A DNA stretch of 64,000 bases from Escherichia phage naswa. Position 1 is the first letter of the stretch; each line of letters starts with the position of its first letter. The stretch is from sequence record MN850595.1. The stretch is one strand, 5' to 3'. The notes below the pieces were generated by a model. It had not been told where the DNA came from. It saw nothing but the letters and a program-made list of their open reading frames with translations, and did no database searches. Shown piece by piece: positions 3,076 to 48,058 of this stretch. The position numbers were made by a program, and so were the translations under genes.

Positions 3076-3312
3076 TTAATCTTCGTAAATCAGGATTTCT
3101 GCTTTAGGTTTTCGTGCTTTCATGTCCAGCTCTATCCAGTGCACCATAGCTGTTTCAAGAAAAACAGCCTGGATGCATCCGTCCTCAGCAGCGTGTCCTA
3201 GCAGCATAACAAGATCTTCTCCTTCGTCATCTGCATCACGAACATACAGAATCTCCCCGGGTTCAAAATCTTTAACAACCTGATTGTTGGATAATTTACG
3301 AATTTTCGCCAT
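3076..3312 (-). CDS. small protein, tandem paralogue family (member 4)
   Basis: 78 aa; shares basic N-terminus, 'PGEIL' core and acidic tail with the three genes upstream. Confidence 0.5.
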   Translation of the reverse strand: MAKIRKLSNNQVVKDFEPGEILYVRDADDEGEDLVMLLGHAAEDGCIQAVFLETAMVHWIELDMKARKPKAEILIYED

Positions 3313-3313
3313 A

Positions 3314-3577
3314 TTAGAAACCCTCTAAAAAGCTCTTGTAGAAAATAATTTCAGTATCTACACCAGTCACGATCTTATCGTTCCTGATTTCATCTGTAAG
3401 GTAGGTGTCAAAACGCAGAACCTGTGTGGTGTTGTCACACATCCACTCAGCTGTGACCATTGCGAAAATCTTAGCATCTTCATTATCTGGTGTGAATGTT
3501 ACCACCTCACCGCACTTAAACTTTTCGATAGGCTGAGTGTTAGCTTTCGGTTCTGCGATAGTGATTTTTGTGGTCAT
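3314..3577 (-). CDS. small protein, tandem paralogue family (member 3)
   Basis: 87 aa; 'CGEVVTF' core; stop/start abuts neighbours. Confidence 0.5.
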   Translation of the reverse strand: MTTKITIAEPKANTQPIEKFKCGEVVTFTPDNEDAKIFAMVTAEWMCDNTTQVLRFDTYLTDEIRNDKIVTGVDTEIIFYKSFLEGF

Positions 3578-3840
3578 TATTCTCCTCCTTCTTTTGAATA
3601 GCTTGTCTCTCCAAGGATGGTAATTTTGGTGTCAAGCTCTGTAACTTTCATGTTTGGCGGCAGATCGTACAACTCATTATTTTCTAAATCGAACCCCCAC
3701 ACACAATGTTCTCCTGTTTTGACAATCATAACTATGTTTTGAATGCCGTCTCCGTCGCAACTTACCACGGTCCCACACGGAAAGCTGTCTGCACGCTTTT
3801 TGTTCTTCACCTTAGAATTGAATACAATGCTGGTAGCCAT
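3577..3840 (-). CDS. small protein, tandem paralogue family (member 2)
   Basis: 87 aa; starts MAT..., 'CGTVVS' core, 'ILGE' near C-terminus; overlapping stop/start. Confidence 0.55.
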   Translation of the reverse strand: MATSIVFNSKVKNKKRADSFPCGTVVSCDGDGIQNIVMIVKTGEHCVWGFDLENNELYDLPPNMKVTELDTKITILGETSYSKEGGE

Positions 3841-4103
3841 TATTGTTCCTCCACCATAACTTCGCCAATAATTTCTATGCAGGCATCCATTTCTGTAACA
3901 ACCAAACTGTGAGGTAGTTCTACAAACACCTTTCTGAACAGGTCAAATACCCCAACATATATGTTTGCAGGATGTGATTTTACAACAAGTGCTGTATTCA
4001 CATCCCCAAGTTCATCAACAAACATCACCACAGTGCCTGGAGCTACTGAGGACAGATACTTCTTAGTTTTACGGTTTGATGCAAATTTTAACTCTGTTGC
4101 CAT
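3840..4103 (-). CDS. small protein, tandem paralogue family (member 1)
   Basis: 87 aa; starts MAT..., 'PGTVVM' core, 'IIGE' near C-terminus. Confidence 0.55.
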   Translation of the reverse strand: MATELKFASNRKTKKYLSSVAPGTVVMFVDELGDVNTALVVKSHPANIYVGVFDLFRKVFVELPHSLVVTEMDACIEIIGEVMVEEQ

Positions 4104-4118
4104 AAATAACCTCCTCTC

Positions 4119-5600
4119 TTACTTAGCGTACTCGATTAATTCCACAGTTTTACCAAAGCTCGGGATATAATTTTTATTATACCCCTCAGTGAGGACCCAT
4201 AGAGTATCGTACTTTTTCCACTTGTTGTCAACAACCTTTTGTTCAAAGTTATGCTCAAAGTATAGGTCGGTCAGGACGATGACATCTTTTGCATTAGGTA
4301 TGTTGGCATCCAGATACTCGAACACGCAAGCAGCTGTTGTGCCCCATGTTGAGTGGACCTCATAGTTGATCATCTCGTCTATGTTGCCGCGAGTGTATAC
4401 TTTAACCTCTCCAACCTCAGTTGACCAACAGAACATTGTAACCTTAAACTCTTTATACAGATTGCACAATCCGGTGATTTCATTGAACATTTTCTTTAAA
4501 GTTCTTTGAGAGATCGAGCCAGAAACGTCTAAAGCCACCACAATATCTATAGTGTTTTCCGGATTACGACCAGGAACAATAACGTGCTGGTTCTTGTTTA
4601 TAGCCCCAACTTTTCGCATTGTGCTGGTCAAAGACCCAGATCGGCGACCAGGTTTTCTGTAGGTCAGTTCGGCCTTTCTTTTAGACAACATACGTTGCTT
4701 AATGATGTCTATATAGTTGATTACAGGCTTACCTCTGTTCTTGACAAACTCACGCACCGCCTCAGGGCAACGGCCTCCGGACGCTTGCATTGCTGCCTCC
4801 AGCATATCACCAGAGTCCTGCATGGCCTGATCTTTATCAGATTGGCTGATTACAGGTTGTGGCTGATCATACCCCATAGCCTTTCCAAGATTATCACTGG
4901 TGCCACCGTTCCCACTCATGTGATCATCGGTTTGTCGCTTATCACTTTGAGAGTTCTCACCTTTACCGTTCTTACTTTTACCGTTATTCTGATCTCTTTG
5001 CTTATCAAGAACTGCATAAACGTTCTCAGCAATCCATCCATGAAACTTCATGTCGCAGTAGCAGCTGGCTAAGAAGCCAAAAGGCTTACCTTTCATGAAC
5101 GTAGTGCTTTTCCCCTTCGGGAAGAAAACACAAGGGGGTTTGCTAAAGTCAACCACAAGGCCTGTGTTGATAACGTGATCACAAGCAATATTGAACAGTT
5201 CCGGCTCAAAGCTTTTACCACGGACTAGGTGATCACAGATAATATGCCCCACCTCATGTGACAGAAGGAAGGCCACCTCTTTCACAGATTTTGGGGAATA
5301 GAAAACTTCAGCCATCTCAAACTGCTCGTCAGTTAGAGAAGCCTTAAGAATAGCCTTGCGCTCATCAGCCAATCCCATAATGAACTCAGGACTGTAATAG
5401 ATGCGTTTATGGTCGGTTGCCATGGTGGAGCACCATGTGTGGTTTTCTACGAACTGCAACCCTGACAGTAGTGTGCCATAAAACGGCAGCTTTTCAAGGA
5501 GATACATACGTGCAGCCTGCAACATTCTCAGGGCATCATCTTTCTGCGAGGCAATGATTTCTGAACTTCTGCTATCCATTAAAACTCCAGAAGGGGCCAT
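4119..5600 (-). CDS. metallopeptidase-like (HExxH) / VWA-domain protein
   Basis: 493 aa; 'HEVGH' zinc-peptidase motif in N-terminal half; 'VALDVSGSIS' (DxSxS MIDAS-like) in C-terminal half; Gly/Ser/Asp-rich linker. Confidence 0.65.
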   Translation of the reverse strand: MAPSGVLMDSRSSEIIASQKDDALRMLQAARMYLLEKLPFYGTLLSGLQFVENHTWCSTMATDHKRIYYSPEFIMGLADERKAILKASLTDEQFEMAEVFYSPKSVKEVAFLLSHEVGHIICDHLVRGKSFEPELFNIACDHVINTGLVVDFSKPPCVFFPKGKSTTFMKGKPFGFLASCYCDMKFHGWIAENVYAVLDKQRDQNNGKSKNGKGENSQSDKRQTDDHMSGNGGTSDNLGKAMGYDQPQPVISQSDKDQAMQDSGDMLEAAMQASGGRCPEAVREFVKNRGKPVINYIDIIKQRMLSKRKAELTYRKPGRRSGSLTSTMRKVGAINKNQHVIVPGRNPENTIDIVVALDVSGSISQRTLKKMFNEITGLCNLYKEFKVTMFCWSTEVGEVKVYTRGNIDEMINYEVHSTWGTTAACVFEYLDANIPNAKDVIVLTDLYFEHNFEQKVVDNKWKKYDTLWVLTEGYNKNYIPSFGKTVELIEYAK

Positions 5601-5612
5601 CGGCCCCTGTCA

Positions 5613-6656
5613 TTATTTAACGTGTTTGAAAATACCTGCCAACTCGGTCATTGTCATGCGGGTGGTCTTCATAAGATCTGTCATAGCTTTCTCCATAATT
5701 GGAGATACTACCATAAAGTTTCCTTTAGTGAAACCTTTATTCCAGTCGGTCACCAACAGGGGTTTAAGTCCAGCTCCAAGACGTTCACCAGTTAAAGCAC
5801 AGCATTTGCGAATATACGAACTCTTAAATTGGCTGAACGACAGATCAACTTTCATACCTACATCGTAGAACGTTTGACAATAGAAAGTGTAAGCTTTGGC
5901 AATCTCAACATCATCAGGTAGTGCAGGAACCTCTTCTGTAAGCTCCTCTTCGACCTCCTGAGTCTCTTTTTCCTCTTCATGCACCTGTTGCGTCATTTCT
6001 TCAATCTCTTCTGTGATAGGCTCGTTTACAATGTCGGAAATGTGCTTCTTGGGTGCACGATAAGTAACTTTAGACATCGGTAGCATATCTTCCTCCTCTT
6101 CTTCGTCAAAGAGTGCTAGTTTATCCTCTTCCGTTCCATATTGCAAGATGAAATCTTCAAAAGTATAATCACCTTTCAATTTCTCCATACGCTCTTCGCT
6201 CAGGTGGAGCATCATCTGCTGGACAATTTTTCGATCAGTTTCGTCTTTAATCAAGACTGCAGTCTTTTTATCTACCAGACAGTCCTTTAGAGAGTTGCAT
6301 CTCAATCCCACCACACAACAGTTATCAACCGCATAAGGACCTTCATCATCTATCCGCTCCAGAGATGGGTAGAAAGGATTCCCCAGCCCGTTTTCATCTG
6401 TGTGCATGTCAAAAGGTATAAGGGTATAGTCGCATACTCCATCTCCTAAAAGTTTTTTACCAAATAGGAGGTATTCTTCCCATGACAGGTCGAACTCTAT
6501 ATCTCGTTTCCGTGCGTTATTCTGTTTGCGTCTATATTTTTTGAGCAAGCGCTCTAACTCTTCTGGTGTATAATATTTTTCAAGATTCATGAGTCGTCTC
6601 TCGTGCTCTGTAAGTGAAGAAATCGTATCAATTGTCTCAACAGATGTCAACATCAA
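5613..6656 (-). CDS. hypothetical acidic protein (possible fusion of two modules)
   Basis: 347 aa; Glu-rich central region; in-frame internal ATG at 6077 preceded by GAGGAGG, encoding 'MSKVTYRA' shared with the plus-strand gene at 7921. Confidence 0.5.
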   Translation of the reverse strand: MMLTSVETIDTISSLTEHERRLMNLEKYYTPEELERLLKKYRRKQNNARKRDIEFDLSWEEYLLFGKKLLGDGVCDYTLIPFDMHTDENGLGNPFYPSLERIDDEGPYAVDNCCVVGLRCNSLKDCLVDKKTAVLIKDETDRKIVQQMMLHLSEERMEKLKGDYTFEDFILQYGTEEDKLALFDEEEEEDMLPMSKVTYRAPKKHISDIVNEPITEEIEEMTQQVHEEEKETQEVEEELTEEVPALPDDVEIAKAYTFYCQTFYDVGMKVDLSFSQFKSSYIRKCCALTGERLGAGLKPLLVTDWNKGFTKGNFMVVSPIMEKAMTDLMKTTRMTMTELAGIFKHVK

Positions 6657-6663
6657 AAACGTG

Positions 6664-6692
6664 TTGACTTTACTCTAACTCCACAATATAGT
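6664..6692 (+). promoter_or_regulatory. sigma70-like promoter (TTGACT-N17-TATAGT)
   Basis: Hexamers read directly in the divergent intergenic region upstream of 6733. Confidence 0.45.
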
Positions 6693-6732
6693 GCACCCAT
6701 TCGAAAGAAAACTAACATAGGAGCACTTACTT

Positions 6733-7632
6733 ATGGCAAATCTTAACAGTTTTAGTACGCGGTGGAAACAGGACATAACAACCAATCTTTCAGCTGGGGA
6801 CATCCTTTCTGCAATTTACGAGGCTTTAGATGATAAAGCTACTTCAAAAGCGGTTTGTACCAACCCATTAATTCCTATAGTGATGAAGGTTATTGAGCGT
6901 AGATTGGTATCTGGGTCTGATAAGTGGACATATTTAGATAATGAAGGACACACCTATTCCAATGGGTATGTCGATATAAAAGTAGAATACGCGGTATCAT
7001 ACCGCCGGAGCGGTTCTGTAACTTTCAACTTCTCTGGAGGTTTTCGATCTCTGGCTACCTCACCTTTTGTTTCCTCAGAGGAGAAGTATGAGCTGCCATT
7101 TCTTTGGATGATGGCTAACGCGACAGGAAAAACCCCCGTTAGCATCCGAGTAAAATACAACTACAACGGATCTAGTAAGATCTATGCCGAAAGTGTCTCA
7201 GCAAGTTTTTATTTTGTGATGGGGGATGGAATCCTCAAACATATAAAGATGTGCGATATGCATGATGTTATAAATGAAGTGACTGATAAGAATGTTCTAG
7301 TGAAAGACCTCAACAATTTTTATACACCTGGAGACTATTACGTCAGCCGTCCACTGTGCATCTTTAATGCCGCACACCCTCTAGGTGAGTATTTGATCGC
7401 CAATAGCGATATTGCCAATAACCGCTTCGAGGTAGCAAGAGTTCAGAATGAGGTATTGACATCTTGCAAGAGCGGTGATAAGTTTACCGAAGAAGAGATG
7501 GGTGTTTTAGAAATGATGGGATATAAGTGTAGCCTTTGGGTAGATGAGGTGTTTAATGATTGCATCTATGGACAGGATATTTACCCATTAAAGAAGTATA
7601 CTGATACAAGTTTAATTTATGCGAGGGTTTGA
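6733..7632 (+). CDS. hypothetical protein
   Basis: Track ORF 299 aa; first gene of plus-strand arm. Confidence 0.5.
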   Translation: MANLNSFSTRWKQDITTNLSAGDILSAIYEALDDKATSKAVCTNPLIPIVMKVIERRLVSGSDKWTYLDNEGHTYSNGYVDIKVEYAVSYRRSGSVTFNFSGGFRSLATSPFVSSEEKYELPFLWMMANATGKTPVSIRVKYNYNGSSKIYAESVSASFYFVMGDGILKHIKMCDMHDVINEVTDKNVLVKDLNNFYTPGDYYVSRPLCIFNAAHPLGEYLIANSDIANNRFEVARVQNEVLTSCKSGDKFTEEEMGVLEMMGYKCSLWVDEVFNDCIYGQDIYPLKKYTDTSLIYARV

Positions 7633-7907
7633 CTATGATGAAGGCATGTGGTAATGTATATTACGTCGGTGAACATGTTCAGGCAGACAGTGTGTGGAAA
7701 TCTATTAAGTCCACCACTGACGATGCCTTTCTGAGTGGACTATGTTTCCCCAATCCGGGAGACATCCTCCCTCATCCTGGAGATTTTGTTGTCAACAAGA
7801 TGGACGGTTATACCGTGTGCCTGATGGTTGAAAAAATCTTTTTAGACACTAGACACAATCACCGTCTTGTGTTAAAATTTCAAGAATGTAAAATGACAAT
7901 TGCCTAA
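7629..7907 (+). CDS. hypothetical protein
   Basis: Track ORF 92 aa; ATGA overlap with upstream gene. Confidence 0.45.
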   Translation: MTMMKACGNVYYVGEHVQADSVWKSIKSTTDDAFLSGLCFPNPGDILPHPGDFVVNKMDGYTVCLMVEKIFLDTRHNHRLVLKFQECKMTIA

Positions 7908-7920
7908 GGAGACCTTACCG

Positions 7921-8277
7921 ATGTCTAAAGTTACTTATCGTGCAGCTATTTACTGCAATGAACACCCAATCAATAATGATGGTCACTGCCTTTTTAAAGA
8001 AAATCAATTGGGCTGTATTGTCCTCCCTGATGAAGGGGAAGGTTATCTGATTGCATTGACAGGGTTTGAACCTGAGGCTCTGGAAGCCAATCTGGACTAC
8101 CTGGTAGAAGAGGGTGCTGCAGACCTGGTTGCCAATGGCCTCTCCATAAGCCTTGACGAAGTAGAGCGCTTCATGGGCAATTACCGTGTAGTGCGTGAGT
8201 TTACTATCGAGGTGGAAACTCCCGAGTGGAGTAGCCATGAAACTAATGCCGAAGAAAAAGAAGAGGAGGTAGAATAA
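7921..8277 (+). CDS. hypothetical acidic protein
   Basis: Start moved to ATG 7921 (AAGGAG 8 nt upstream); N-terminus 'MSKVTYRA' repeated inside 5613..6656; Glu-rich C-terminus. Confidence 0.5.
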   Translation: MSKVTYRAAIYCNEHPINNDGHCLFKENQLGCIVLPDEGEGYLIALTGFEPEALEANLDYLVEEGAADLVANGLSISLDEVERFMGNYRVVREFTIEVETPEWSSHETNAEEKEEEVE

Positions 8278-8534
8278 TGAAAGTGCAGATCTTGACTAAT
8301 GCCGAGAAGATGTTTATTGAAGATACACCTTTTGAAGCTGGTGAGCTACAGTTCGTTTATTTTGTTGACTTAGATAAGGTGTTTCCTGCACTGAATCTAG
8401 GTTTGGATGAAGTTCCTCATAAGGTTTTGTGCCAAGTTGTTCGTGCCTTAGCGGCAGAGGGGGAGTTCCACACCCTTCAAGATGTCCAGACCTACGGGTA
8501 TCTTGAACTACAACGAGAAGAAGAGGTGGACTGA
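8277..8534 (+). CDS. hypothetical protein
   Basis: Track ORF 85 aa; ATGA overlap. Confidence 0.45.
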   Translation: MKVQILTNAEKMFIEDTPFEAGELQFVYFVDLDKVFPALNLGLDEVPHKVLCQVVRALAAEGEFHTLQDVQTYGYLELQREEEVD

Positions 8535-8536
8535 TA

Positions 8537-8917
8537 ATGGCTCAGTGGAAGACGACAGTTGACCTTCATGATCAGTGGTTAGGACGCATCACTGAAGACG
8601 GGAAGCTAGTGGAGTGGGACAATAAGCATGTTAGCGAGTTGGCAAGTATTGTGGCTGGCAAGTTACGCTCCAAGTTCCCTGAACAACTGGATCCTGATAG
8701 TTCAAAGTTCGATCCTGAGTTGGAGGATGTTGTATACTACTTCGATACCGTGGATGACTACGATGCGTGGTTTGCAGCACGGGAGCTTTACCCACAAGGC
8801 TCTGCTATGCGCCGGATGGAAGAAGATTATCCTCCGTGTGAGCAATTCAATAGTGCAATGACTTGCCTCTATGATTGGGCAGATAAGAACCTTGTCTGGA
8901 TTCGGACTGCATTTTAG
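8537..8917 (+). CDS. hypothetical protein
   Basis: Track ORF 126 aa. Confidence 0.5.
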   Translation: MAQWKTTVDLHDQWLGRITEDGKLVEWDNKHVSELASIVAGKLRSKFPEQLDPDSSKFDPELEDVVYYFDTVDDYDAWFAARELYPQGSAMRRMEEDYPPCEQFNSAMTCLYDWADKNLVWIRTAF

Positions 8918-8961
8918 TGGGCAGGAATGGCGGCAAGGATGCCGCTTAAGGAGTAGTAGAG

Positions 8962-9231
8962 ATGTTATACCAGCAATATGAACTTCGTGCAGAAAAAGAG
9001 TTAAATTTTGACAAAGATATTCACAGATATTATTATGGGAAAGTTAGAGGGCAAGCAAGAAAGTGTACTCCAACACTCTTTTATGCCAGCAGACGACTAG
9101 CGCCAGAAGAGGCAACAGCAGAAAGGGTTGCGTACAACTGGAGAGTCACGTATGATATTGACAGATTCGATGTGATATCTGTTTTGGAAAACTTTGAAAA
9201 CACTTACACACAAGTAGAGGACTTTTACTAA
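8962..9231 (+). CDS. hypothetical protein
   Basis: Track ORF 89 aa; stop overlaps start of the ATPase gene. Confidence 0.45.
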   Translation: MLYQQYELRAEKELNFDKDIHRYYYGKVRGQARKCTPTLFYASRRLAPEEATAERVAYNWRVTYDIDRFDVISVLENFENTYTQVEDFY

Positions 9232-10415
9232 TGTCAAGAAACGTATTCGAAAGTGGTCAAATCACTGTCCGTGAGTTGCCAGCTATTATTCAGTTTGCCC
9301 AACGTCATAGCCGATCTGTCCTAATTTTGGGACCAATGGGTGTGGGTAAAAGCCAGGTGATGAAGCAGATCGCTGATAATATGTTCGGTGAGCGAGATGA
9401 CAACCTTGTTGACGTGCGACTGTCAGATAAAGATCCTGCCGACTTATCTGGGCTACCTATCCCTGTAGAAGCGGATGGAACTACACGTACAGTGTTTGCA
9501 ATTCCAGAATTTTGGCCTGCGGATCCTGACTGGAGCGGAATTATCTTTCTGGATGAGCTCACTCATGCAGATAACTACCTGCAAAAGGTTGCAATGCAAA
9601 TTATGCTTGACCACAAGTGCGGCACCTATGCATTCCCTAAGGGTTCTGTTTTTGTGGCTGCGGGTAACCGTTCTACAGATGGTGCGGTTCTTTCGGCGCT
9701 CGAAGCCCCTCTGGCTAACCGTTTTATCATTGTAGAGGTTACAAGCAATGCAGAGGTGTTTATTGAGGACTACGCATTCCTCAACGGGGTTCACTCCTCT
9801 GTAATTGGGTATCTGAAAAGAGTTCCATCAGCTATTGATAATTATGAGGCTATGGCTGAGATTAATTGTCCATCTTTTGCCACACCACGATCTTGGGTTG
9901 CTGCATCTGACATCTTGCACGATTTTGACAGCGGTATTATTTCTGACGCTATGGCCCGTGTTCTTCTGCAAGGTGCTATTGGTCACACTGCAGCGGTAGA
10001 GATCTGGACATACCACACCAAGAAACGCAATTTACCGGAAATCGGTCGGATTATGGCAGGTGGCTGCAAAGAATACGTAGGCCCTAAGCAGCCAGACATT
10101 TTGTGGATTCTTGGATCTGAAGGTTGTATCGCTATTCGTAATATGATGGAAAATGCAAGTATCTCAGACGAAGATCTTGTCAGCTGCGTGGCAAACTTCC
10201 TCGATTTCCTTTGGGAAAACTTCAAGGACGAGAACCGAGATTTTGTATTCTCAGTCTTTATGGCGATGATGAAACCTAATGCCTTAGGAAATGCCTTGCT
10301 TATCGGTAAAGGGCGTGACAAGATTGTTGCTCAGCTGATCAAAGCATACCCAAACCTGATGAAGATTGTAAAAGAGTTTGGTGAAGAGTTTAGCGCCATT
10401 TTGGCTAAAGCTTAA
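9231..10415 (+). CDS. MoxR-like AAA+ ATPase
   Basis: Walker A 'GPMGVGKS', Walker B-like 'IIFLDEL', ~390 aa single AAA module. Confidence 0.65.
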   Translation: MSRNVFESGQITVRELPAIIQFAQRHSRSVLILGPMGVGKSQVMKQIADNMFGERDDNLVDVRLSDKDPADLSGLPIPVEADGTTRTVFAIPEFWPADPDWSGIIFLDELTHADNYLQKVAMQIMLDHKCGTYAFPKGSVFVAAGNRSTDGAVLSALEAPLANRFIIVEVTSNAEVFIEDYAFLNGVHSSVIGYLKRVPSAIDNYEAMAEINCPSFATPRSWVAASDILHDFDSGIISDAMARVLLQGAIGHTAAVEIWTYHTKKRNLPEIGRIMAGGCKEYVGPKQPDILWILGSEGCIAIRNMMENASISDEDLVSCVANFLDFLWENFKDENRDFVFSVFMAMMKPNALGNALLIGKGRDKIVAQLIKAYPNLMKIVKEFGEEFSAILAKA

Positions 10416-13345: not shown

Positions 13346-14551
13346 ATGATTTTCATCTACGAACATTTCAAAACTCGTAAAGAAGCACGCGACCGCCGTG
13401 CAGAACTTGAGAAGAAGGGTTTCACATGTGCTATTGAGAAAGGTACTACAACATGGACACTGGCAGTAGGTGCCCCAGAGCTGTTTGATCCTGACCGAGA
13501 CAGTGTCTGCTATACCCGTGAGGATTTTGAAACCCGCGAAGAGGCCCGTTTATTCCGCTACGGACTGGAAGACAACGGTAAGTACGCCATGATCTTAGAT
13601 TCAGGTGAAGGTTCCGTTAAACGTTGGGGCGTGGTATACCCACTGTGTGTTGTTCACGGTGTGGGGGTCACTGGGGTAGCAATCAAGTCAGAAGAACCTT
13701 TAGTAGAAGTCAAAGATCCGGTGCTGGAAGTGGTGAGCAGTGTGTCTCAGCAACAGTCTCGAAGCATCGAGCCTTTGGTAGTTATTTGCGGGGAACTCCT
13801 CCAGATCACCTGCAACGAAGGCATTTTTGAAATTCGCCGCAGCGAAAGTGAGGAAGTTTACCAGAAAGTCTTCGACCATATTTCTGTTCAGGAATATGAT
13901 GAGGCAATTGGTGAAATCCTTGTCTGGCTGGAACGCAAGAATGAGTTCACCACACTTGCAGACAACCTGATCATGAAAGATGGTAAGCTCTACTACTACG
14001 GTGTAGAGATGCGATCCACCATTGCAAAGAAAATTGAGGAAGATTATGTAGATGGAACACTGGACGACCGATATGTTAAATTCCTTGTCCGTCTGCTACG
14101 CAACCCGTCTGCAAAATCTGTGAACATGCTCTACGATTTCATGCAGGCTAATGACATCCAGGTTGCAGAAGATGGTCGAATCATTTGCTATAAGGGGGTT
14201 CAGTTTAACGGGAGCAGGTGGGTGGATTGGCACAGCGGTAAAGTTCCACAATACCAGGGTGCTTTTGTGTCCATGCCTCGTAACTTTGTAGAAGATGATC
14301 CGGAAGCTGCGTGTTCTTATGGCCTGCACTGCGCCAGCAAAGAGTATGCAGCGGGCTATGGCACTGTAATGATGGTTATGGTTGACCCTGCGGATGTGGT
14401 TAGTGTGCCATACCAACACAACAGTGCTAAGTGCCGTGCATGCCGCTACGAAATAGTAGCAGCACCGGAATCACGCAAAGATGGCGATCCGATTGAATAC
14501 GTAGTTGACCGTGATGGTAACATCATCGACATTATCTACGAGGAGGCGTAA
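13346..14551 (+). CDS. rIIB-like protein (by position only)
   Basis: 401 aa directly downstream of the rIIA-like gene; internal ~45-aa duplicated module near N-terminus; no motif verified. Confidence 0.35.
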   Translation: MIFIYEHFKTRKEARDRRAELEKKGFTCAIEKGTTTWTLAVGAPELFDPDRDSVCYTREDFETREEARLFRYGLEDNGKYAMILDSGEGSVKRWGVVYPLCVVHGVGVTGVAIKSEEPLVEVKDPVLEVVSSVSQQQSRSIEPLVVICGELLQITCNEGIFEIRRSESEEVYQKVFDHISVQEYDEAIGEILVWLERKNEFTTLADNLIMKDGKLYYYGVEMRSTIAKKIEEDYVDGTLDDRYVKFLVRLLRNPSAKSVNMLYDFMQANDIQVAEDGRIICYKGVQFNGSRWVDWHSGKVPQYQGAFVSMPRNFVEDDPEAACSYGLHCASKEYAAGYGTVMMVMVDPADVVSVPYQHNSAKCRACRYEIVAAPESRKDGDPIEYVVDRDGNIIDIIYEEA

Positions 14552-15921
14552 TGGAAAAAGGGCAGTATGACGTAGGCACAGATGCTGCCCTCATTGCAAT
14601 CATGAGTGGTGAGAATGTCTTCGTTTCAGGACCTGCAGGTTGTGGGAAGACGTATCTCATCAACATGATCCAGTCAATGTATGGAGACTCTTGCATAACG
14701 GTTGCCCCGACAGGGGTAGCCGCTTTAAACGTTAATGGAGCAACAGCACACCGAACATTCGATCTTGCAGCAGGTGTGAGCATGGAGTCGGACTGGACCG
14801 CAATAAGGGCAAAAACAGCAAAGCCTTTGAAAAGCAAGGCATTTACCATCCTAATTATCGATGAAATCTCTATGATCCGTGCTGATAAGTTTATAGAGAT
14901 GGATAGGAAACTCCGCTTCCTTCGAAAAAATGACAAACCTTTCGGAGGCATACAGGTCATATTGTTTGGCGATTTTTACCAGGCACCTCCTGTTGTCTCT
15001 TCTATGGAGAAGGAAGCCTACTTCAACTTCTACCATACGGACCTGTGTTGCTACACCGAATCTTGGAAAGAGCTTGACCTCCACAACATAGCCCTAATAG
15101 ATCAGTTCCGACAGGAGTCTATTCGATTTGCCACAATGCTTAACTGTGTTCGTGAGGGTCGTCGCATAAAAGAGGTTGTAGCAGAACTTAATGCTCGCTG
15201 TTACAAAGGTGGTGTACCAACAGATGCTCTCACAATTTGCGCCACCAACAAACAAGCAGAGGAAGTAAACAGAAGGTTCTATGATGCCATCAACGCCCCA
15301 GAGAAGGTATACACTGGTGAAATGAAGGGTAAGTTTCCCTCCACCCTGCCAGTTGAGCAGGAGATGAAGTTGAAAATTGGCATGAAAGTTATGATAACCG
15401 CCAACGATGTTGACCCGACGCACAAAGTACCTTATTATGTTAACGGAACACGTGCCACAATTGTTAAATTTAAGAACAAGGCGGTGGTGGTAGAGCTTGA
15501 AGATGGAACACAGGTTGACATAGAGCAGAGGTTGTGGGAGAATAACGAGTATAAGCCCTCTCAGAGATACAACATTGCAGAAAGGAAGATGGAGAAGTTT
15601 ATAGAGAGGGTAGTGATTGGGTCATACAAGCAACTTCCTCTGAAATCTGGGTACGCCGTAACATCTCATAAAAGTCAAGGACTTACGCTAGATTGTTACA
15701 ACCTAGACCTTGGAAAGAACGGAGCTTTCTCTCCTGGGATGACGTATGTCGCTTTGAGTAGAGTTAAGACAATACAAGGAATAAACTTGTTGCGTCCCCT
15801 AAGAGAAGTTGACATTATTGTTGACCCGCGAGTAGTAGAGTTTTACAATACAACATTCCCTGACTTAGACAAAATTGTCAGGAAAGATTTTGAAACCAGA
15901 GCAGAAGAGGGGGACGTATGA
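14551..15921 (+). CDS. SF1B DNA helicase (Dda/RecD/Pif1-like)
   Basis: Walker A 'GPAGCGKT', motif II 'IIDEISM', C-terminal 'VTSHKSQG' and 'YVALSRV' signatures. Confidence 0.8.
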   Translation: MEKGQYDVGTDAALIAIMSGENVFVSGPAGCGKTYLINMIQSMYGDSCITVAPTGVAALNVNGATAHRTFDLAAGVSMESDWTAIRAKTAKPLKSKAFTILIIDEISMIRADKFIEMDRKLRFLRKNDKPFGGIQVILFGDFYQAPPVVSSMEKEAYFNFYHTDLCCYTESWKELDLHNIALIDQFRQESIRFATMLNCVREGRRIKEVVAELNARCYKGGVPTDALTICATNKQAEEVNRRFYDAINAPEKVYTGEMKGKFPSTLPVEQEMKLKIGMKVMITANDVDPTHKVPYYVNGTRATIVKFKNKAVVVELEDGTQVDIEQRLWENNEYKPSQRYNIAERKMEKFIERVVIGSYKQLPLKSGYAVTSHKSQGLTLDCYNLDLGKNGAFSPGMTYVALSRVKTIQGINLLRPLREVDIIVDPRVVEFYNTTFPDLDKIVRKDFETRAEEGDV

Positions 15922-44349: not shown

Positions 44350-44367
44350 TTTTTTAACTGAATTATC

Positions 44368-44393
44368 AAGGGGCTTAGGCCCCTTTCTTTTTG
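44368..44393 (+). terminator. rho-independent terminator
   Basis: AAGGGGC-TTAG-GCCCCTT hairpin then TCTTTTTG. Confidence 0.6.
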
Positions 44394-44399
44394 TCTGCT

Positions 44400-46840
44400 C
44401 TTCCCCCCCTACCATAAACGGCCCTACCTGGCAAGTGGAATAATTGACGAGCCATCAATCCCACACACTGTACAAATATACATGGAAAATAACTATTGCA
44501 TAATTTTTCATTGTGTGGTAGCAAGGCCATTTTTACCCGTTTTACCTTCCAAAATTGCACGTAATGCCGCTATTGCACAAATTTTAACCTGATGCACATC
44601 TCCAATATCTTGTCAACAACTAAAAATCTTTATAAGTCATGCACTTACATAACCACAAAAGCGTGTTCTACGTGAAAAATCGAGTATAACTATAGCCGCC
44701 AGATCTCAGAATTTACGTACGCTCACCAGTCTATAGCCTGCTAAGTATTTATTCCAACCATAGAATAACGGAATAGTCAATACCTGCATAAAATAATTAT
44801 TCGTGTAAACTGCATAACATAAATCGGCTAGGATGTCAACATTTTTCGTAAACAGCTCGAAATTATAACGGTGAGTTATAATAAACAGAGAAATCTTTAG
44901 TCGTCTAATGTTTACTGTACATTACTATACTGACTGGAATCATTAGATGACTAAGAGAAAGATAAGAAATCATTAACAATGCAATTGTTTTATTCGTAAC
45001 AATAAGGCAACTATGCAAACGAATGGCATGGCGCGACGGAGTCGCGACATAATATAAAAGCAGTAACCATCACCCCCGTGATAGTTTGTCTGCAAACTAT
45101 TAATCAGATCATAGTTGCCTTGTATTTAGTTAATCATGACATAACAAGCAGGGCAACTATAGATCTGCTAATAGTTGCCCTGCTTTTATATTATGTCATG
45201 CTAATTATAATCAGTGCGATTATTGTCATGTATAATTATTGTCATGCAAACGAATGGCATGGCTGATTATCGGTGTGTAAACAGTCAATCATGTAAATGG
45301 TTAGCATGTGAACAATCAGGAATGTAAACAATCCAGTGTGTAAACTAATAGGTGTGTAAAAGTGTCATGTTGTGTCAGTTAGGTCACATTATGTCAGACA
45401 AGTTTTTCTCCTCTTTGTCAAGTGCTGCATGAAAAATTTACAAGCTTGTATGGTAGCATTTTTGCGGCCCTGTTTACATTCAGGAGTGTATGTATAATCC
45501 TTGGTGTGTGGGCGTTTAGACGTCTAGACGGTTGGAAGTATGCAGGTCAATATCTAATCTATTGGCTGCTAACTATATCCCACACAAATGATAAGAAATA
45601 TAATTGTTATATGCGTAAACTGTAACTCATGTTATCAATCCCTGTATGTATCGCCAGTGGTGCGCATAATGGGTATTATGTTAAATTGCCCGTAATGATA
45701 ACTATTCTCACAATGATAGGTATTCTCATTCACCCCCACAAGATAGGTTGCAAATGTTGTGCCACTGTGTGAACGGCCTAGCCTATTAATTTGCCTCACT
45801 GCCTTGATATTTGAGAATTGTTATAAGAATGAGAAGTATTCCCATTTCGTCCGCCTGGCAGCACTCCAGTCGCTACCGGCTCCTGACAGGGCAGCTCTCC
45901 TGTAGGTCAGGTCAAAATCGTGGTAGAATTGGGCCTATTCAGATATTTCTGGCTGACTCTTCAGGTCTGTGTGAGAAAAGCCAACCTTTCCGGCGGCGGG
46001 GAGGGGTCAATTAAAAAATTTACGTGGTGTATGAAGCGCTCTTCAGGTAAGGCAGGTATTATGTGATGAAACCCTCTTCAGGCAATGATATTTGTGGGTG
46101 TGATATTTGCTGGAAAGCCAGATATGACGGGACTCCCGGCGGGGCAGGGGTAGTACAGACAGGGAAAATATGGGGGATGTAGTTGGGGAAATTGATCAGG
46201 CAGGTAGAGTATGGAATATGTTACAAGTATGTTAAATATGGAGGTTGAATATCTGCAGGATTTGTGTGTAAAATCAAAGACTTAAGTGGTGTTGTGGTAT
46301 TTTCTATAAATAATTCAAGTTTAATAGGTAATATTTGTCTCTATCCACTTTGTGTGGTAAACAGATTCAGATGAAATTGGTTTACAAGTGTATACATAAT
46401 ATACAAATTAAAGATACAAGAAACCCCCCTCCCCCTTCGGCTACCATTCACCTTTTCCTCTGACTGGTACTTAAACACTTATTCAGACTCTTCAGGTTAT
46501 CACCCATATATCATATGGCAGTGACTGGTGTCCTCCGGCCCCTCTTTCGTCACCCGTCCGCTTCGCCATGCTAATGCCATAGCCAATGGTTCGGTTGTTC
46601 ACCCTGTTCACTCAGGTGTATCTCCATACCCCTTCAAACCGAAGAGAACAGAAAACCCGAATTACTCGGTAAAAGAAAAGAGAAGAACTTAATTTTATCA
46701 GGATAGGCAAGAATGTCAAGGCATGACTGCTCACTAAACAAGCAAACAGTCATGTGTGGTAGGTAAGTGATTGTGGTGGTAGGAAATTTAGTTGAAAGAT
46801 GTGTTATAGGTGCGCTTCCAGCACTTTAGCCGGGCAGCTA
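44400..46840. other. ~2.4-kb non-coding convergence region with several repeat families (candidate origin / packaging / terminus region)
   Basis: No long co-directional ORF; 20-bp direct repeat at 45013 and 45244; ATAGTT(G/T) palindromes 45082-45182; six TGTAAAC-like iterons 45276-45361; CTCTTCAGG x5 from 45957. Confidence 0.5.
45276..45361. repeat. six iteron-like repeats (TGTAAAC core, 14-17 bp period)
   Basis: Cores at 45276, 45293, 45307, 45323, 45339, 45355. Confidence 0.5.
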
Positions 46841-46848
46841 ATTGTGTG

Positions 46849-47758: not shown

Positions 47759-48058
47759 CTATACCCATGAGGGCTTATCAAGGTTGGAGTAGCTGAAAGG
47801 TGTCAAAAGGTGACTGTCAAAATCCCTCAAACTATCCAAATCTTTTTCCTCGTCCTGACACCATCTGTGCCTACATTTATTGTTGTAGTGCATAGAATGC
47901 ATAGCGTTCTGCAACTTAACAGGTACAAGTGATTCAGGAGTAGATAGTATTGTTGGGTATGCCAGAACCACCTCAAACAGTGGAAACACATCGAAACTAA
48001 AGTCTACCTCTGCAGAGGTTGATGGCATGTAGGAGTATTTAGCCGCCTTTGTAGACAT
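47759..48058 (-). CDS. hypothetical protein
   Basis: Start moved to internal ATG behind GAGGTGG (track start 48070). Confidence 0.4.
   Translation of the reverse strand: MSTKAAKYSYMPSTSAEVDFSFDVFPLFEVVLAYPTILSTPESLVPVKLQNAMHSMHYNNKCRHRWCQDEEKDLDSLRDFDSHLLTPFSYSNLDKPSWV

What the first reader, a model, noticed from the sequence alone, without database searches (positions are those of the whole stretch)
4119..10415. Metallopeptidase-VWA protein and MoxR-like AAA+ ATPase encoded divergently ~3.6 kb apart
A 493-aa protein combines an HExxH peptidase motif with a VWA/MIDAS-like module (4119-5600, minus). A MoxR-type AAA+ ATPase lies at 9231-10415 (plus). MoxR-VWA pairs usually act together as chaperone or remodelling systems; the peptidase module suggests regulated proteolysis. 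The function of such pairs in phages is not established.
Basis: partly seen in the sequence, partly recalled or inferred. Interest (0 to 1): 0.5.

Follow-up and report, generated by a model that had tools for sequence, protein, structure and literature searches.

The report
Split phage MoxR ATPase–VWA peptidase pair
This rV5-type coliphage carries, on opposite arms of one early promoter region, the two halves of a widespread phage module (an ATP-driven remodelling enzyme and its metal-site adaptor fused to a zinc protease); recent transposon data link that module to overcoming a bacterial immune system rather than to building virus particles.

Summary
ORF 4119-5600(-), whose likely true start is 5579 (486 aa), is a DUF2201_N zincin domain with invariant HExxH, fused to a VWA domain with a complete MIDAS. 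ORF 9231-10415(+) is a divergent MoxR-class AAA+ ATPase.

The two genes form a real pair. In about 70 other phage loci and 36 genome loci, the ATPase homologue lies next to a DUF2201 gene. It is nearly always directly upstream on the same strand. This is the N4 gp24/gp25 module, which has also been described in jumbo phages. Only the Vequintavirus/Seunavirus lineage splits the pair across a back-to-back promoter region.

The window is a Vequintavirus (rV5-like). Public records already label the genes "MoxR ATPase" and "putative metallopeptidase".

A 2025 preprint (HIDEN-SEQ, phage Bas54) tested an ATPase that is 100% identical and a peptidase that is 98% identical:
- Both genes are non-essential on E. 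coli K-12.
- The ATPase is required to overcome the HEPN-nuclease defence system DS-28.
- In the preprint's supplementary table, the peptidase-VWA gene is also significantly depleted in the DS-28-carrying strain (log2FC -2.2, against -7.2 for the ATPase).

Verdict: an ordinary, already annotated member of a known kind of module. Its most likely role is early protein remodelling and proteolysis for counter-defence. The mechanism and the target are unknown.

The parts
4119..5579 (-). Coding sequence of the zincin-VWA protein (486 aa; the longest ORF runs to 5600, giving 493 aa). It is the orthologue of bas54_0055, of N4 gp25 and of Pfam DUF2201_N+DUF2201 proteins.
   Evidence: Pfam hits. GenBank 'putative metallopeptidase'. 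RBS GGAG at 5585-5588 before the ATG at 5579. 98% identical to Bas54 0055.
4986..5543 (-). N-terminal zincin-like metallopeptidase domain (residues about 20-205 in 493-aa numbering). The HExxH codons are at 5244-5258. H124, R127 and D141 are also conserved.
   Evidence: DUF2201_N E 4.4e-28. Invariant residues. The N-terminal-only profile hits only zincins: MJ1213 at E 0.004 and M48 BepA/HtpX at about 0.3. The AF2 model shows a three-strand sheet, then the HExxH helix 106-122, then helices 124-130 and 133-151, with pLDDT above 90.
4122..4568 (-). C-terminal VWA domain with a complete MIDAS (D358-x-S360-G-S362, T421, T444-D445). The DxSGS codons are at 4515-4529.
9231..10415 (+). Divergent MoxR-class AAA+ ATPase (394 aa). 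It is the orthologue of bas54_0063 and N4 gp24. The Walker A codons are at 9330-9353 and the Walker B region is at 9540-9557. A C-terminal helical extension covers residues about 270-394.
   Evidence: Motifs. Relatives carry AAA_3, AAA_5 and bpMoxR. Midasin 3e-9. AF2 pLDDT 82, with top Foldseek hits NorQ and CbbQ2. 100% identical to the Bas54 'MoxR ATPase'.
6591..6732 (.). Back-to-back sigma70-like promoters feeding both arms. Plus strand: TTGACT-17-TATAGT at 6664-6692. Minus strand: TTGACA-17-TACGAT (with a TG upstream of the -10) at 6650-6622. The two -35 boxes are the arms of the inverted repeat 6646-6668.
   Evidence: Consensus scan and direct reading of the sequence. These are consensus matches only; no transcription data were available.
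5613..6590 (-). Context gene: an Srd-like 'anti-sigma factor', the first gene of the minus arm and directly upstream of the peptidase-VWA gene. The same order is seen in Seunavirus.
   Evidence: PHROG 3118, plus hits to Srd and sigma70-decoy PHROGs. GenBank annotation. Unaffected in CFE311.
8962..9231 (+). Context gene: an 89-aa ORF whose stop codon overlaps the ATPase start (TAATG), which suggests translational coupling.
   Evidence: PHROG 13164 is labelled 'ATPase', but no domain supports that label. bas54_0062 is unaffected in CFE311.
47759..48058 (-). Orthologue of bas54_0140 (99 aa, unknown function). It is the second gene reported as required, together with the MoxR ATPase, to overcome DS-28. 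It may be a lineage-specific adaptor or inhibitor.
   Evidence: 99% nucleotide identity to bas54_0140. Preprint main text and supplement. The family is confined to the genus Vequintavirus, 117 records.

Best explanation
The two genes are a split copy of an old two-gene module, the N4 gp24/gp25 type. One gene encodes a MoxR-class AAA+ ATPase, presumably a hexameric ring. The other encodes its partner, whose C-terminal VWA/MIDAS domain should capture an acidic residue of a target protein and whose N-terminal zincin domain should cut that target.

In this Vequintavirus, both genes lie within about 1-2.6 kb of a pair of back-to-back sigma70-like promoters, so both are probably made early.

Shown:
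- the domain identities and intact catalytic and MIDAS residues;
- conserved adjacency of the two genes in other phages and in bacteria;
- from the literature, that both genes are dispensable on E. coli K-12;
- that the ATPase is needed to overcome the HEPN-nuclease defence system DS-28;
- that the peptidase-VWA gene is significantly but more mildly depleted in the DS-28-carrying strain.

Inferred:
- the pair works as an ATP-driven remodelling and proteolysis device against a host (defence-related) protein, or a phage protein that triggers defence;
- a Vequintavirus-specific small protein (the bas54_0140 orthologue) supplies specificity;
- the pair is not an essential virion-assembly factor.
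For: Domain and motif evidence:
- Pfam hits.
- Invariant HExxH and MIDAS residues.
- ATPase motifs.
- Midasin profile hit.
- NorQ and CbbQ as the top structural matches.
- Zincin-only PDB hits for the N-terminal domain.

Pairing:
- In 80 IMG/VR loci, every locus with enough downstream DNA has the DUF2201 gene 14-517 nt downstream on the same strand. The exceptions are the two Vequintavirinae-like loci and L044, which has only about 1.1 kb of downstream DNA and no hit.
- 36 of 42 bacterial/MAG loci carry a DUF2201 gene within 5 kb.
- Sulfurivermis fontis chromosome and an N4-like Sulfitobacter phage.
- Certrevirus CR9 keeps the two genes adjacent; Seunavirus is split.
- About 117 Vequintavirus genomes retain both genes.

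Function:
- HIDEN-SEQ preprint 10.1101/2025.11.20.689424: bas54_0063 'MoxR ATPase' and bas54_0140 are required to overcome DS-28.
- On K-12, bas54_0055 tolerates insertions at 81 of 86 TA sites and bas54_0063 at 60 of 64, and both are classed non-essential.
- K-12 against CFE311: 0063 log2FC -7.23; 0055 log2FC -2.20, adjusted p 0.009; flanking genes 0053, 0054, 0056-0062 and 0064-0067 are not significant.
- The tested proteins are 100% and 98% identical to those of the window.
- DS-28 is a HEPN family nuclease plus a 252-aa protein.

Timing:
- Sigma70-like divergent promoters.
- N4 gp24/gp25 are middle genes (PMC4193335).
Against: - The peptidase-VWA effect is about 30-fold weaker than that of the ATPase. 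It was seen only in the whole clinical strain, not against cloned DS-28, and the authors did not follow it up.
- The supplement sheet labelled CFE303 holds the same CFE311 data, so no second-host control could be read.
- No physical interaction, proteolytic activity or substrate has been shown.
- Counter-defence genes are usually variable, yet this pair is a core gene set of N4-like phages and also occurs in bacterial chromosomes. That points to a more general cellular function, of which DS-28 evasion may be a side effect.
- The promoter calls are consensus matches at about the chance rate for the region (20 found against 15.8 expected).
- The functional data come from a preprint.
Confidence: 0.6

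Rival explanations
1. Virion-assembly chaperone with a maturation protease. The MoxR-VWA pair would fold or assemble structural proteins and the fused peptidase would process them. Iyer et al. 2021 proposed this for jumbo phages, by analogy with the MoxR-VWA pair needed for tail development of the Acidianus two-tailed virus.
For: The hypothesis is published for the homologous jumbo-phage pair (PMC7824862). In N4-like roseophages a second structural module lies near the gp24/gp25 homologues (PMC4193335).
Against: - Both genes tolerate transposon insertions at about 94% of TA sites on K-12, whereas capsid, portal, prohead protease and tail genes tolerate none.
- The phage has its own prohead protease, bas54_0006.
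- The genes sit in an early region with sigma70-like promoters, next to an anti-sigma factor and rIIA/rIIB.
- N4 gp24/gp25 are middle genes, not late genes.
Confidence: 0.1
2. The pair became functionally uncoupled after the split. The ATPase would now work with the small bas54_0140-type protein against DS-28, while the peptidase-VWA protein has a separate role or is on its way to loss.
For: - Only 0063 and 0140 were validated against cloned DS-28.
- The log2FC values differ widely: -7.2 and -5.5 against -2.2.
- The two genes are in different transcription units here.
- The 0140 family exists only in Vequintavirus.
Against: - All catalytic and MIDAS residues of the peptidase-VWA protein are intact and invariant.
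- Both genes are retained in about 117 Vequintavirus genomes and in Seunavirus, which shows the same split.
- The peptidase-VWA gene is significantly depleted in the same host, while its operon neighbours 0053, 0054 and 0056 are not.
- Adjacency elsewhere is nearly universal.
Confidence: 0.2
3. Metal-cofactor insertion or enzyme reactivation, as in NorQ/NorD, CbbQ/CbbO and CobS/CobT. The pair would activate a phage or host metalloenzyme, for example one in nucleotide metabolism, and the DS-28 phenotype would be indirect.
For: - The closest solved structures are NorQ and CbbQ and the NorD VWA domain.
- In other phages the pair sits among nucleotide-metabolism genes such as ThyA, Thy1, dUTPase and a 5'-3' exonuclease.
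- The pair is also found in bacterial chromosomes.
Against: - An HExxH peptidase domain is invariably fused to the VWA adaptor, which none of those metallochaperone systems has.
- No target enzyme gene is consistently adjacent.
- The pair is dispensable on K-12.
Confidence: 0.1

Closest known systems
Phage N4 gp24 (AAA ATPase) / gp25 (vWFA), core genes of N4-like phages
   Same: Homologous to both proteins. tblastn of the window peptidase-VWA protein hits N4 gp25 and 'N4 gp25-like' genes, and the ATPase hits 'N4 gp24-like' genes. The order is the same, ATPase then VWA protein. Neither pair is a late gene.
   Different: In N4-likes the genes are adjacent or nearly so and co-directional, and they belong to the 14-gene core (PMC4193335). 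Here they lie on opposite strands 3.6 kb apart and are dispensable on K-12. Identity is only about 21-27%. The function of the N4 pair is unknown.
MoxR plus metallopeptidase-vWA pair of group 2.2 jumbo phages (Iyer, Anantharaman, Krishnan, Burroughs and Aravind 2021, Viruses 13:63)
   Same: [quoted passage not shown] Jumbo-phage homologues (GAP32, phAPEC6, KP13-7, PA5oct) were recovered by tblastn.
   Different: That work covered jumbo phages only and proposed a role in virion assembly and processing. The Vequintavirus copy is split, and the transposon data argue against an essential morphogenetic role.
bas54_0063 'MoxR ATPase' of phage Bas54 (MaxBurger), an anti-DS-28 gene (HIDEN-SEQ preprint 10.1101/2025.11.20.689424)
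   Same: The protein is 100% identical to the window ATPase, with the same gene order.
   Different: The preprint does not link the ATPase to the peptidase-VWA gene bas54_0055. That link rests on the synteny found here and on the preprint's supplementary table.
NorQ/NorD, CbbQ/CbbO, RavA/ViaA and midasin (MoxR/AAA_5 ATPases with VWA-MIDAS partners)
   Same: These are the closest solved structures for the ATPase, and a good match for the VWA domain. The logic is the same: an AAA+ ring, plus an adaptor whose MIDAS grips an acidic residue of the client.
   Different: None of them has a peptidase fused to the VWA adaptor. They mature or reactivate metalloenzymes or ribosomes. Sequence identity is about 15-23%. 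The window ATPase has an extra C-terminal helical domain of about 120 aa.
Bacterial DUF2201 (COG3864-type 'predicted metal-dependent peptidase') next to an AAA_5 ATPase
   Same: The same two-gene operon, for example in Sulfurivermis fontis and in Arcobacteraceae chromosomes.
   Different: These are cellular genes and are also uncharacterised. Identity to the peptidase-VWA protein is 22-25%.

Membership tests
MoxR-class AAA+ ATPase (H2-insert clade) | AAA+ core with Walker A, Walker B, sensor 1, arginine finger and sensor 2 | tested here: met
   G37xG39K40S41, D108-E109, N146, R164 and R220 are invariant in 20 homologues.
MoxR-class AAA+ ATPase (H2-insert clade) | Match to the curated MoxR/AAA_5 profiles (Pfam AAA_3 PF07726, AAA_5 PF07728) above the gathering score | tested here: not met
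   The window protein scores 16.7 bits on AAA_5 against a cut-off of 22, and has no AAA_3 hit. No NCBIfam model matches. All 8 of the roughly 360-aa relatives (30-33% identical) hit AAA_5 (2.4e-9), AAA_3 (3e-8) and, for four of them, bpMoxR. Membership is therefore transitive: this is a divergent branch.
MoxR-class AAA+ ATPase (H2-insert clade) | Beta-hairpin insert in helix 2 and a pre-sensor-1 beta-hairpin | tested here: met
   The AF2 model has a hairpin at 75-90 between beta2 and beta3, and a short hairpin at 129-134 before the sensor-1 strand. This is a predicted structure, not a solved one. The top Foldseek hits, NorQ and CbbQ2, belong to this clade.
MoxR-class AAA+ ATPase (H2-insert clade) | Genomic coupling to a VWA-domain partner | tested here: met
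   The genes are adjacent in about 70 phage loci and 36 genome loci. In this window the partner is 3.6 kb away on the other strand.
MoxR-class AAA+ ATPase (H2-insert clade) | Hexamer formation and ATP hydrolysis | not testable with these tools
   This needs biochemistry or a multimer prediction.
VWA domain with MIDAS | Rossmann-like VWA fold | tested here: met
VWA domain with MIDAS | Complete MIDAS motif DxSxS...T...D | tested here: met
   D358, S360, S362, T421 and D445 are invariant across 24 sequences.
VWA domain with MIDAS | Metal binding and ligand capture through the MIDAS | not testable with these tools
   Needs experiment.
Zincin metallopeptidase (Pfam DUF2201_N) | HExxH on an active-site helix preceded by a beta-sheet, with a third metal ligand downstream | tested here: met
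   H115-E116-x-x-H119 is invariant. H124 and D141 are invariant and are candidate third ligands. The AF2 model has strands 49-69, then helix 106-122, with pLDDT above 90. Which residue is the third ligand was not determined.
Zincin metallopeptidase (Pfam DUF2201_N) | Significant similarity to peptidases of known structure | tested here: inconclusive
Zincin metallopeptidase (Pfam DUF2201_N) | Proteolytic activity | not testable with these tools
   No member of DUF2201 has been assayed, as far as the searched literature shows.
Phage counter-defence gene | Dispensable in a defence-poor host and required in a host carrying a specific defence system | tested here: inconclusive
   This rests on literature, not on a computation here. 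The criterion is met for the ATPase: a knock-out is sensitive to cloned DS-28. For the peptidase-VWA gene there is only depletion in the whole strain CFE311, log2FC -2.2, adjusted p 0.009. No PADLOC match for either protein.

The most novel reading that the evidence does not exclude
The MoxR plus VWA-zincin module (the N4 gp24/gp25 family, present in more than 600-800 sequenced phages of unrelated morphotypes) could be a general, programmable 'immune-protein extractor and shredder'. In this reading, the MIDAS grips host defence proteins, the AAA+ ring pulls them apart and the fused zincin cuts them. Small lineage-specific proteins such as the bas54_0140 orthologue (window 47759-48058) would act as specificity adaptors. 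That would make it the first ATP-driven proteolytic counter-defence machine encoded by phages, and it would explain why this enigmatic pair is a core gene set of N4-like phages.
Probability: 0.2. Interest if true: 0.8.

Novelty: new member of a known kind. Interest (0 to 1): 0.4.

Why it matters
The module is among the most widely conserved phage gene pairs of unknown function. It is core in N4-like phages, and is present in rV5-like phages, many jumbo phages and bacteria.

Three things can now be tied together:
- the split Vequintavirus copy and the wider family;
- the first phenotype for the family (evasion of the HEPN system DS-28);
- transposon data showing that the pair is dispensable in a laboratory host.

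Together these turn a long-standing annotation ("AAA ATPase / vWFA, function unknown") into a testable hypothesis of ATP-driven proteolytic counter-defence. They also weaken the published virion-assembly proposal.

As a sequence observation, however, the finding is ordinary. Both genes are already named in GenBank records of this phage group.

Tried and rejected
- The search for related loci with the peptidase-VWA alignment failed because no stretch was conserved enough. The ATPase alignment was used instead.
- NCBIfam gave nothing useful for any of the five proteins.
- PADLOC gave no real match.
- A single-sequence PDB search for the ATPase saw only P-loop similarity to ClpB/ClpC. The profile search and the structure search were needed.
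- The CRISPRi-ART paper (PMC11879866) uses the rV5-like phage EdH4 and N4, but has no data on these genes.
- The phAPEC6 virion-proteome paper does not mention the pair.
- A literature search for DUF2201 returned four papers, none with the term in its title or abstract; none was read further. 'MoxR' together with 'rV5' returned none.
- I looked for a second-host control (CFE303) in the HIDEN-SEQ supplement, but that sheet repeats the CFE311 data.
- I rejected the PHROG/RefSeq label 'HNH endonuclease' for the peptidase-VWA protein and for the anti-sigma-like gene. No HNH domain was found.
- I rejected the 'ATPase' label of the 89-aa ORF 8962-9231. No domain supports it.
- The third fold search was not used. 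A whole-protein search would again be dominated by VWA hits.

Full report
**Origin of the window.** The 6.3-kb region is 99.7% identical to many Vequintavirus (rV5-like) coliphages. The ATPase protein is 100% identical to that of Escherichia phage V5 itself. In public records the two genes are already labelled 'MoxR ATPase' and 'putative metallopeptidase' or 'VWA-like domain containing protein'.

**Check of the observation.** Both ORFs are present as stated.

The minus-strand protein matches Pfam DUF2201_N (putative metallopeptidase, E 4.4e-28) and DUF2201 (VWA-like, E 6e-11), both well above their gathering scores. In alignments of 18 and 24 homologues, down to about 20% identity, the invariant columns are the functional ones. 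These are H115-E116-x-x-H119, H124 and D141 in the N-terminal half, and D358-x-S360-G361-S362, T421 and T444-D445 (a full MIDAS) in the C-terminal half.

The ATG at 5600 lies in the loop of a GC-rich hairpin. A GGAG box precedes the ATG at 5579, which is the start used in GenBank and in the 486-aa cluster representative. The protein is therefore more likely 486 aa than 493 aa.

The plus-strand protein is a P-loop ATPase. Walker A, Walker B, sensor 1, arginine finger and sensor 2 are invariant in 20 homologues. The gap between the genes is 3,630 bp and holds seven annotated genes.

**Is the ATPase MoxR-type?**
- By direct profile search, no. Every Pfam AAA model is below its cut-off, NCBIfam finds nothing, and a single-sequence PDB search sees only the P-loop of Clp ATPases.
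- By transitive and structural evidence, yes. Homologues of about 360 aa at roughly 34% identity carry AAA_3, AAA_5 and sometimes bpMoxR.
- A profile of the family hits midasin at 3e-9.
- An AF2 model (pLDDT 82) shows the helix-2 insert hairpin and the pre-sensor-1 hairpin. Its best PDB matches are NorQ (in complexes with the NorD VWA domain) and CbbQ2, 'a MoxR AAA+-ATPase'.
- I file it as a divergent branch of the MoxR class, and note that the curated-profile criterion is not met by this protein itself.

**VWA and peptidase folds.**
- The peptidase half could not be searched alone by structure.
- An N-terminal-only sequence profile finds only zincins in the PDB: the minigluzincin MJ1213 at E 0.004 and M48 BepA/HtpX at about 0.3.
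- The model has the expected sheet followed by the HExxH helix at high confidence.
- The peptidase assignment therefore rests on Pfam, invariant residues and weak but specific zincin similarity. No activity has been shown for any family member.

**Are the two genes a pair?** This is the strongest computational result.
- The nearest non-Vequintavirinae relatives of the ATPase lie immediately upstream of a DUF2201_N+DUF2201 gene in large phage contigs.
- Of 80 IMG/VR loci retrieved with the ATPase alignment, every locus with enough downstream DNA has the partner 14-517 nt downstream on the same strand. The exceptions are two Vequintavirinae-like loci that share the split seen in the window, and L044, which has only about 1.1 kb of downstream DNA and no hit.
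- Of 42 bacterial/MAG loci, 36 have the partner within 5 kb, almost always downstream and co-directional.
- The Sulfurivermis fontis chromosome and an N4-like Sulfitobacter phage show the same operon.
- tblastn against 50,697 phage records finds the partner in 620 records and the ATPase in 812. The genus distributions match closely. The hits include N4 gp25 and 'gp24-like' genes, N4-like phages, PA5oct, GAP32, phAPEC6, RaK2-like phages, phage G and all Vequintavirinae.

**The split.** Within the subfamily, Certrevirus CR9 keeps ATPase-then-partner on one arm of a divergent region. Seunavirus EC152 and Vequintavirus have the partner on the other arm, behind the Srd-like anti-sigma gene. So the partner gene was relocated across the divergent promoter region in the ancestor of these genera. 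In the window, both arms start at back-to-back sigma70-like promoters whose -35 boxes form an inverted repeat at 6646-6668. These are consensus matches only.

**What is known.**
- N4 gp24 (AAA ATPase) and gp25 (vWFA) are among the 14 core genes of N4-like phages. They are middle genes of unknown function (PMC4193335 and PMC2784036).
- Iyer et al. 2021 described the MoxR plus metallopeptidase-vWA pair in group 2.2 jumbo phages and proposed virion assembly with proteolytic processing (PMC7824862).
- The HIDEN-SEQ preprint (10.1101/2025.11.20.689424) mutagenised the Vequintavirus Bas54 (MaxBurger, MZ501093.1). It reports that bas54_0063 ('MoxR ATPase') and bas54_0140 (unknown function) are needed to overcome DS-28, a predicted defence system of E. 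coli CFE311.
- The Bas54 ATPase is 100% identical, and its metallopeptidase 98% identical, to the window proteins.
- DS-28 comes from the DefensePredictor study. It consists of a 163-aa HEPN family nuclease and a 252-aa protein (PMC13092281 supplement).

**What the supplement adds.**
- On K-12, bas54_0055 (metallopeptidase) has insertions at 81 of 86 TA sites and bas54_0063 at 60 of 64. Both are classed non-essential, as are all genes between and around them.
- In the K-12 against CFE311 comparison, 0063 drops to zero reads (log2FC -7.23) and 0140 has log2FC -5.48.
- In the same comparison, 0055 has log2FC -2.20 (p 0.0009, adjusted p 0.009).
- Its neighbours 0053, 0054, 0056-0062 and 0064-0067 are unchanged, which argues against polar effects.
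- The authors do not comment on 0055.
- The sheet labelled CFE303 contains the CFE311 run again, so I could not check specificity.
- The bas54_0140 orthologue is in the window at 47759-48058(-). Its family exists only in the genus Vequintavirus.

**Most likely mechanism.**
- Shown: a conserved two-gene module with intact ATPase, MIDAS and zincin residues; dispensability in K-12; a requirement for the ATPase against DS-28; and a milder conditional defect for the partner gene.
- Inferred, by analogy with CbbQ/CbbO, NorQ/NorD and midasin: the VWA domain docks on a hexameric ring and grips an acidic residue of a client through its MIDAS. ATP hydrolysis remodels the client, and the fused zincin cleaves it.
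- The client may be a DS-28 component, or a phage or host protein whose state triggers DS-28. The small Vequintavirus-specific protein may provide specificity.
- The much stronger ATPase phenotype leaves open that the ATPase can act without its ancestral partner. The breadth of the family, including bacterial chromosomes, suggests a more general function than countering one defence system.

**Rivals.**
- The virion-assembly proposal is disfavoured. Both genes are non-essential, whereas structural genes tolerate no insertions. The genes are early or middle in location, and a separate prohead protease exists.
- Uncoupling of the pair is possible, but it is opposed by strict co-retention, intact motifs and the shared host-specific depletion.
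- A metallochaperone role like NorQD or CbbQO fits the structural neighbours, but not the invariably fused peptidase.

**Verdict.** The finding is real, and its interpretation is essentially right. It concerns genes that are already annotated, in a module that is already described, and for which a first phenotype has just been reported. Its value lies in connecting these strands and in the testable prediction that the peptidase-VWA protein and the MoxR ATPase act together in counter-defence.

Noticed in passing
window 44350-46848: A 2.5-kb stretch with no ORF of 70 aa or more lies between convergently oriented gene blocks, where the GC skew changes sign. It corresponds to the bas54_0134/0135 intergenic region, in which the HIDEN-SEQ preprint saw no tolerated transposon insertions. 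It holds a cluster of inverted and direct repeats around 44997-45263, including a perfect 18-nt inverted repeat at 45046/45180 and the motif ATAGTTGCC. No tRNA and no Rfam match were found. It may be a replication origin or a non-coding RNA locus.
   Followed up: partly
window 47759-48058 (-): This 99-aa ORF is the orthologue (99% nucleotide identity) of bas54_0140, reported as required together with the MoxR ATPase to overcome defence system DS-28. PHROG 12072, unknown function. The family is found only in the genus Vequintavirus (117 records).
   Followed up: partly
window 14551-15921 (+): The Dda-like DNA helicase (PHROG 325, orthologue of bas54_0068) is non-essential on K-12 but strongly depleted in E. 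coli CFE311 (log2FC -6.3) in the HIDEN-SEQ supplement. I did not find it mentioned in the passages of the preprint's main text that I read.
   Followed up: no
window 3076-4103 (-): Four consecutive small ORFs (78, 87, 87 and 87 aa) directly downstream of the peptidase-VWA gene are diverged tandem paralogues, about 20% identical with the same length and a shared pattern. Their function is unknown.
   Followed up: partly
window 5592-5608: A GC-rich hairpin (AGGGGCCGATGGCCCCT) sits between the anti-sigma-like gene and the peptidase-VWA gene and encloses the upstream ATG at 5600. It could be a partial terminator or an RNA-stability element within the minus-strand operon.
   Followed up: no
window 4119-5600 and 5613-6656; public records: PHROG 1314, PHROG 3118 and several RefSeq records label the peptidase-VWA protein and the Srd-like anti-sigma gene as 'HNH endonuclease'. 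Other records call the peptidase-VWA protein 'anti-sigma factor' or 'DNA repair ATPase'. No domain evidence supports these names. The 'alpha 1-3 fucosyltransferase' label of 6733-7632 also has no Pfam or NCBIfam support.
   Followed up: partly
window 4119-10415 against GenBank: Sixteen records named 'Campylobacter phage' (host Campylobacter jejuni; for example MG065635.1, 99.7% identical) match this coliphage region, 99.7% identical for the one listed. The host assignment of those records looks doubtful.
   Followed up: no
window about 4560-4660 (residues about 314-347 of the 493-aa protein): A nearly invariant motif, Y-x-R-P-x-R-R (R319, R320), and P343 lie between the peptidase and VWA domains, after a low-confidence Gly/Ser/Asp-rich linker (residues 210-235, pLDDT below 50). 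This could be a docking motif or an autoprocessing site. It is unexplained.
   Followed up: no
HIDEN-SEQ preprint, Extended Data Table 8: The sheet titled 'resampling_K-12_vs_CFE303' contains the same command line and numbers as the CFE311 sheet. The CFE303 comparison is therefore missing from the deposited file.
   Followed up: yes
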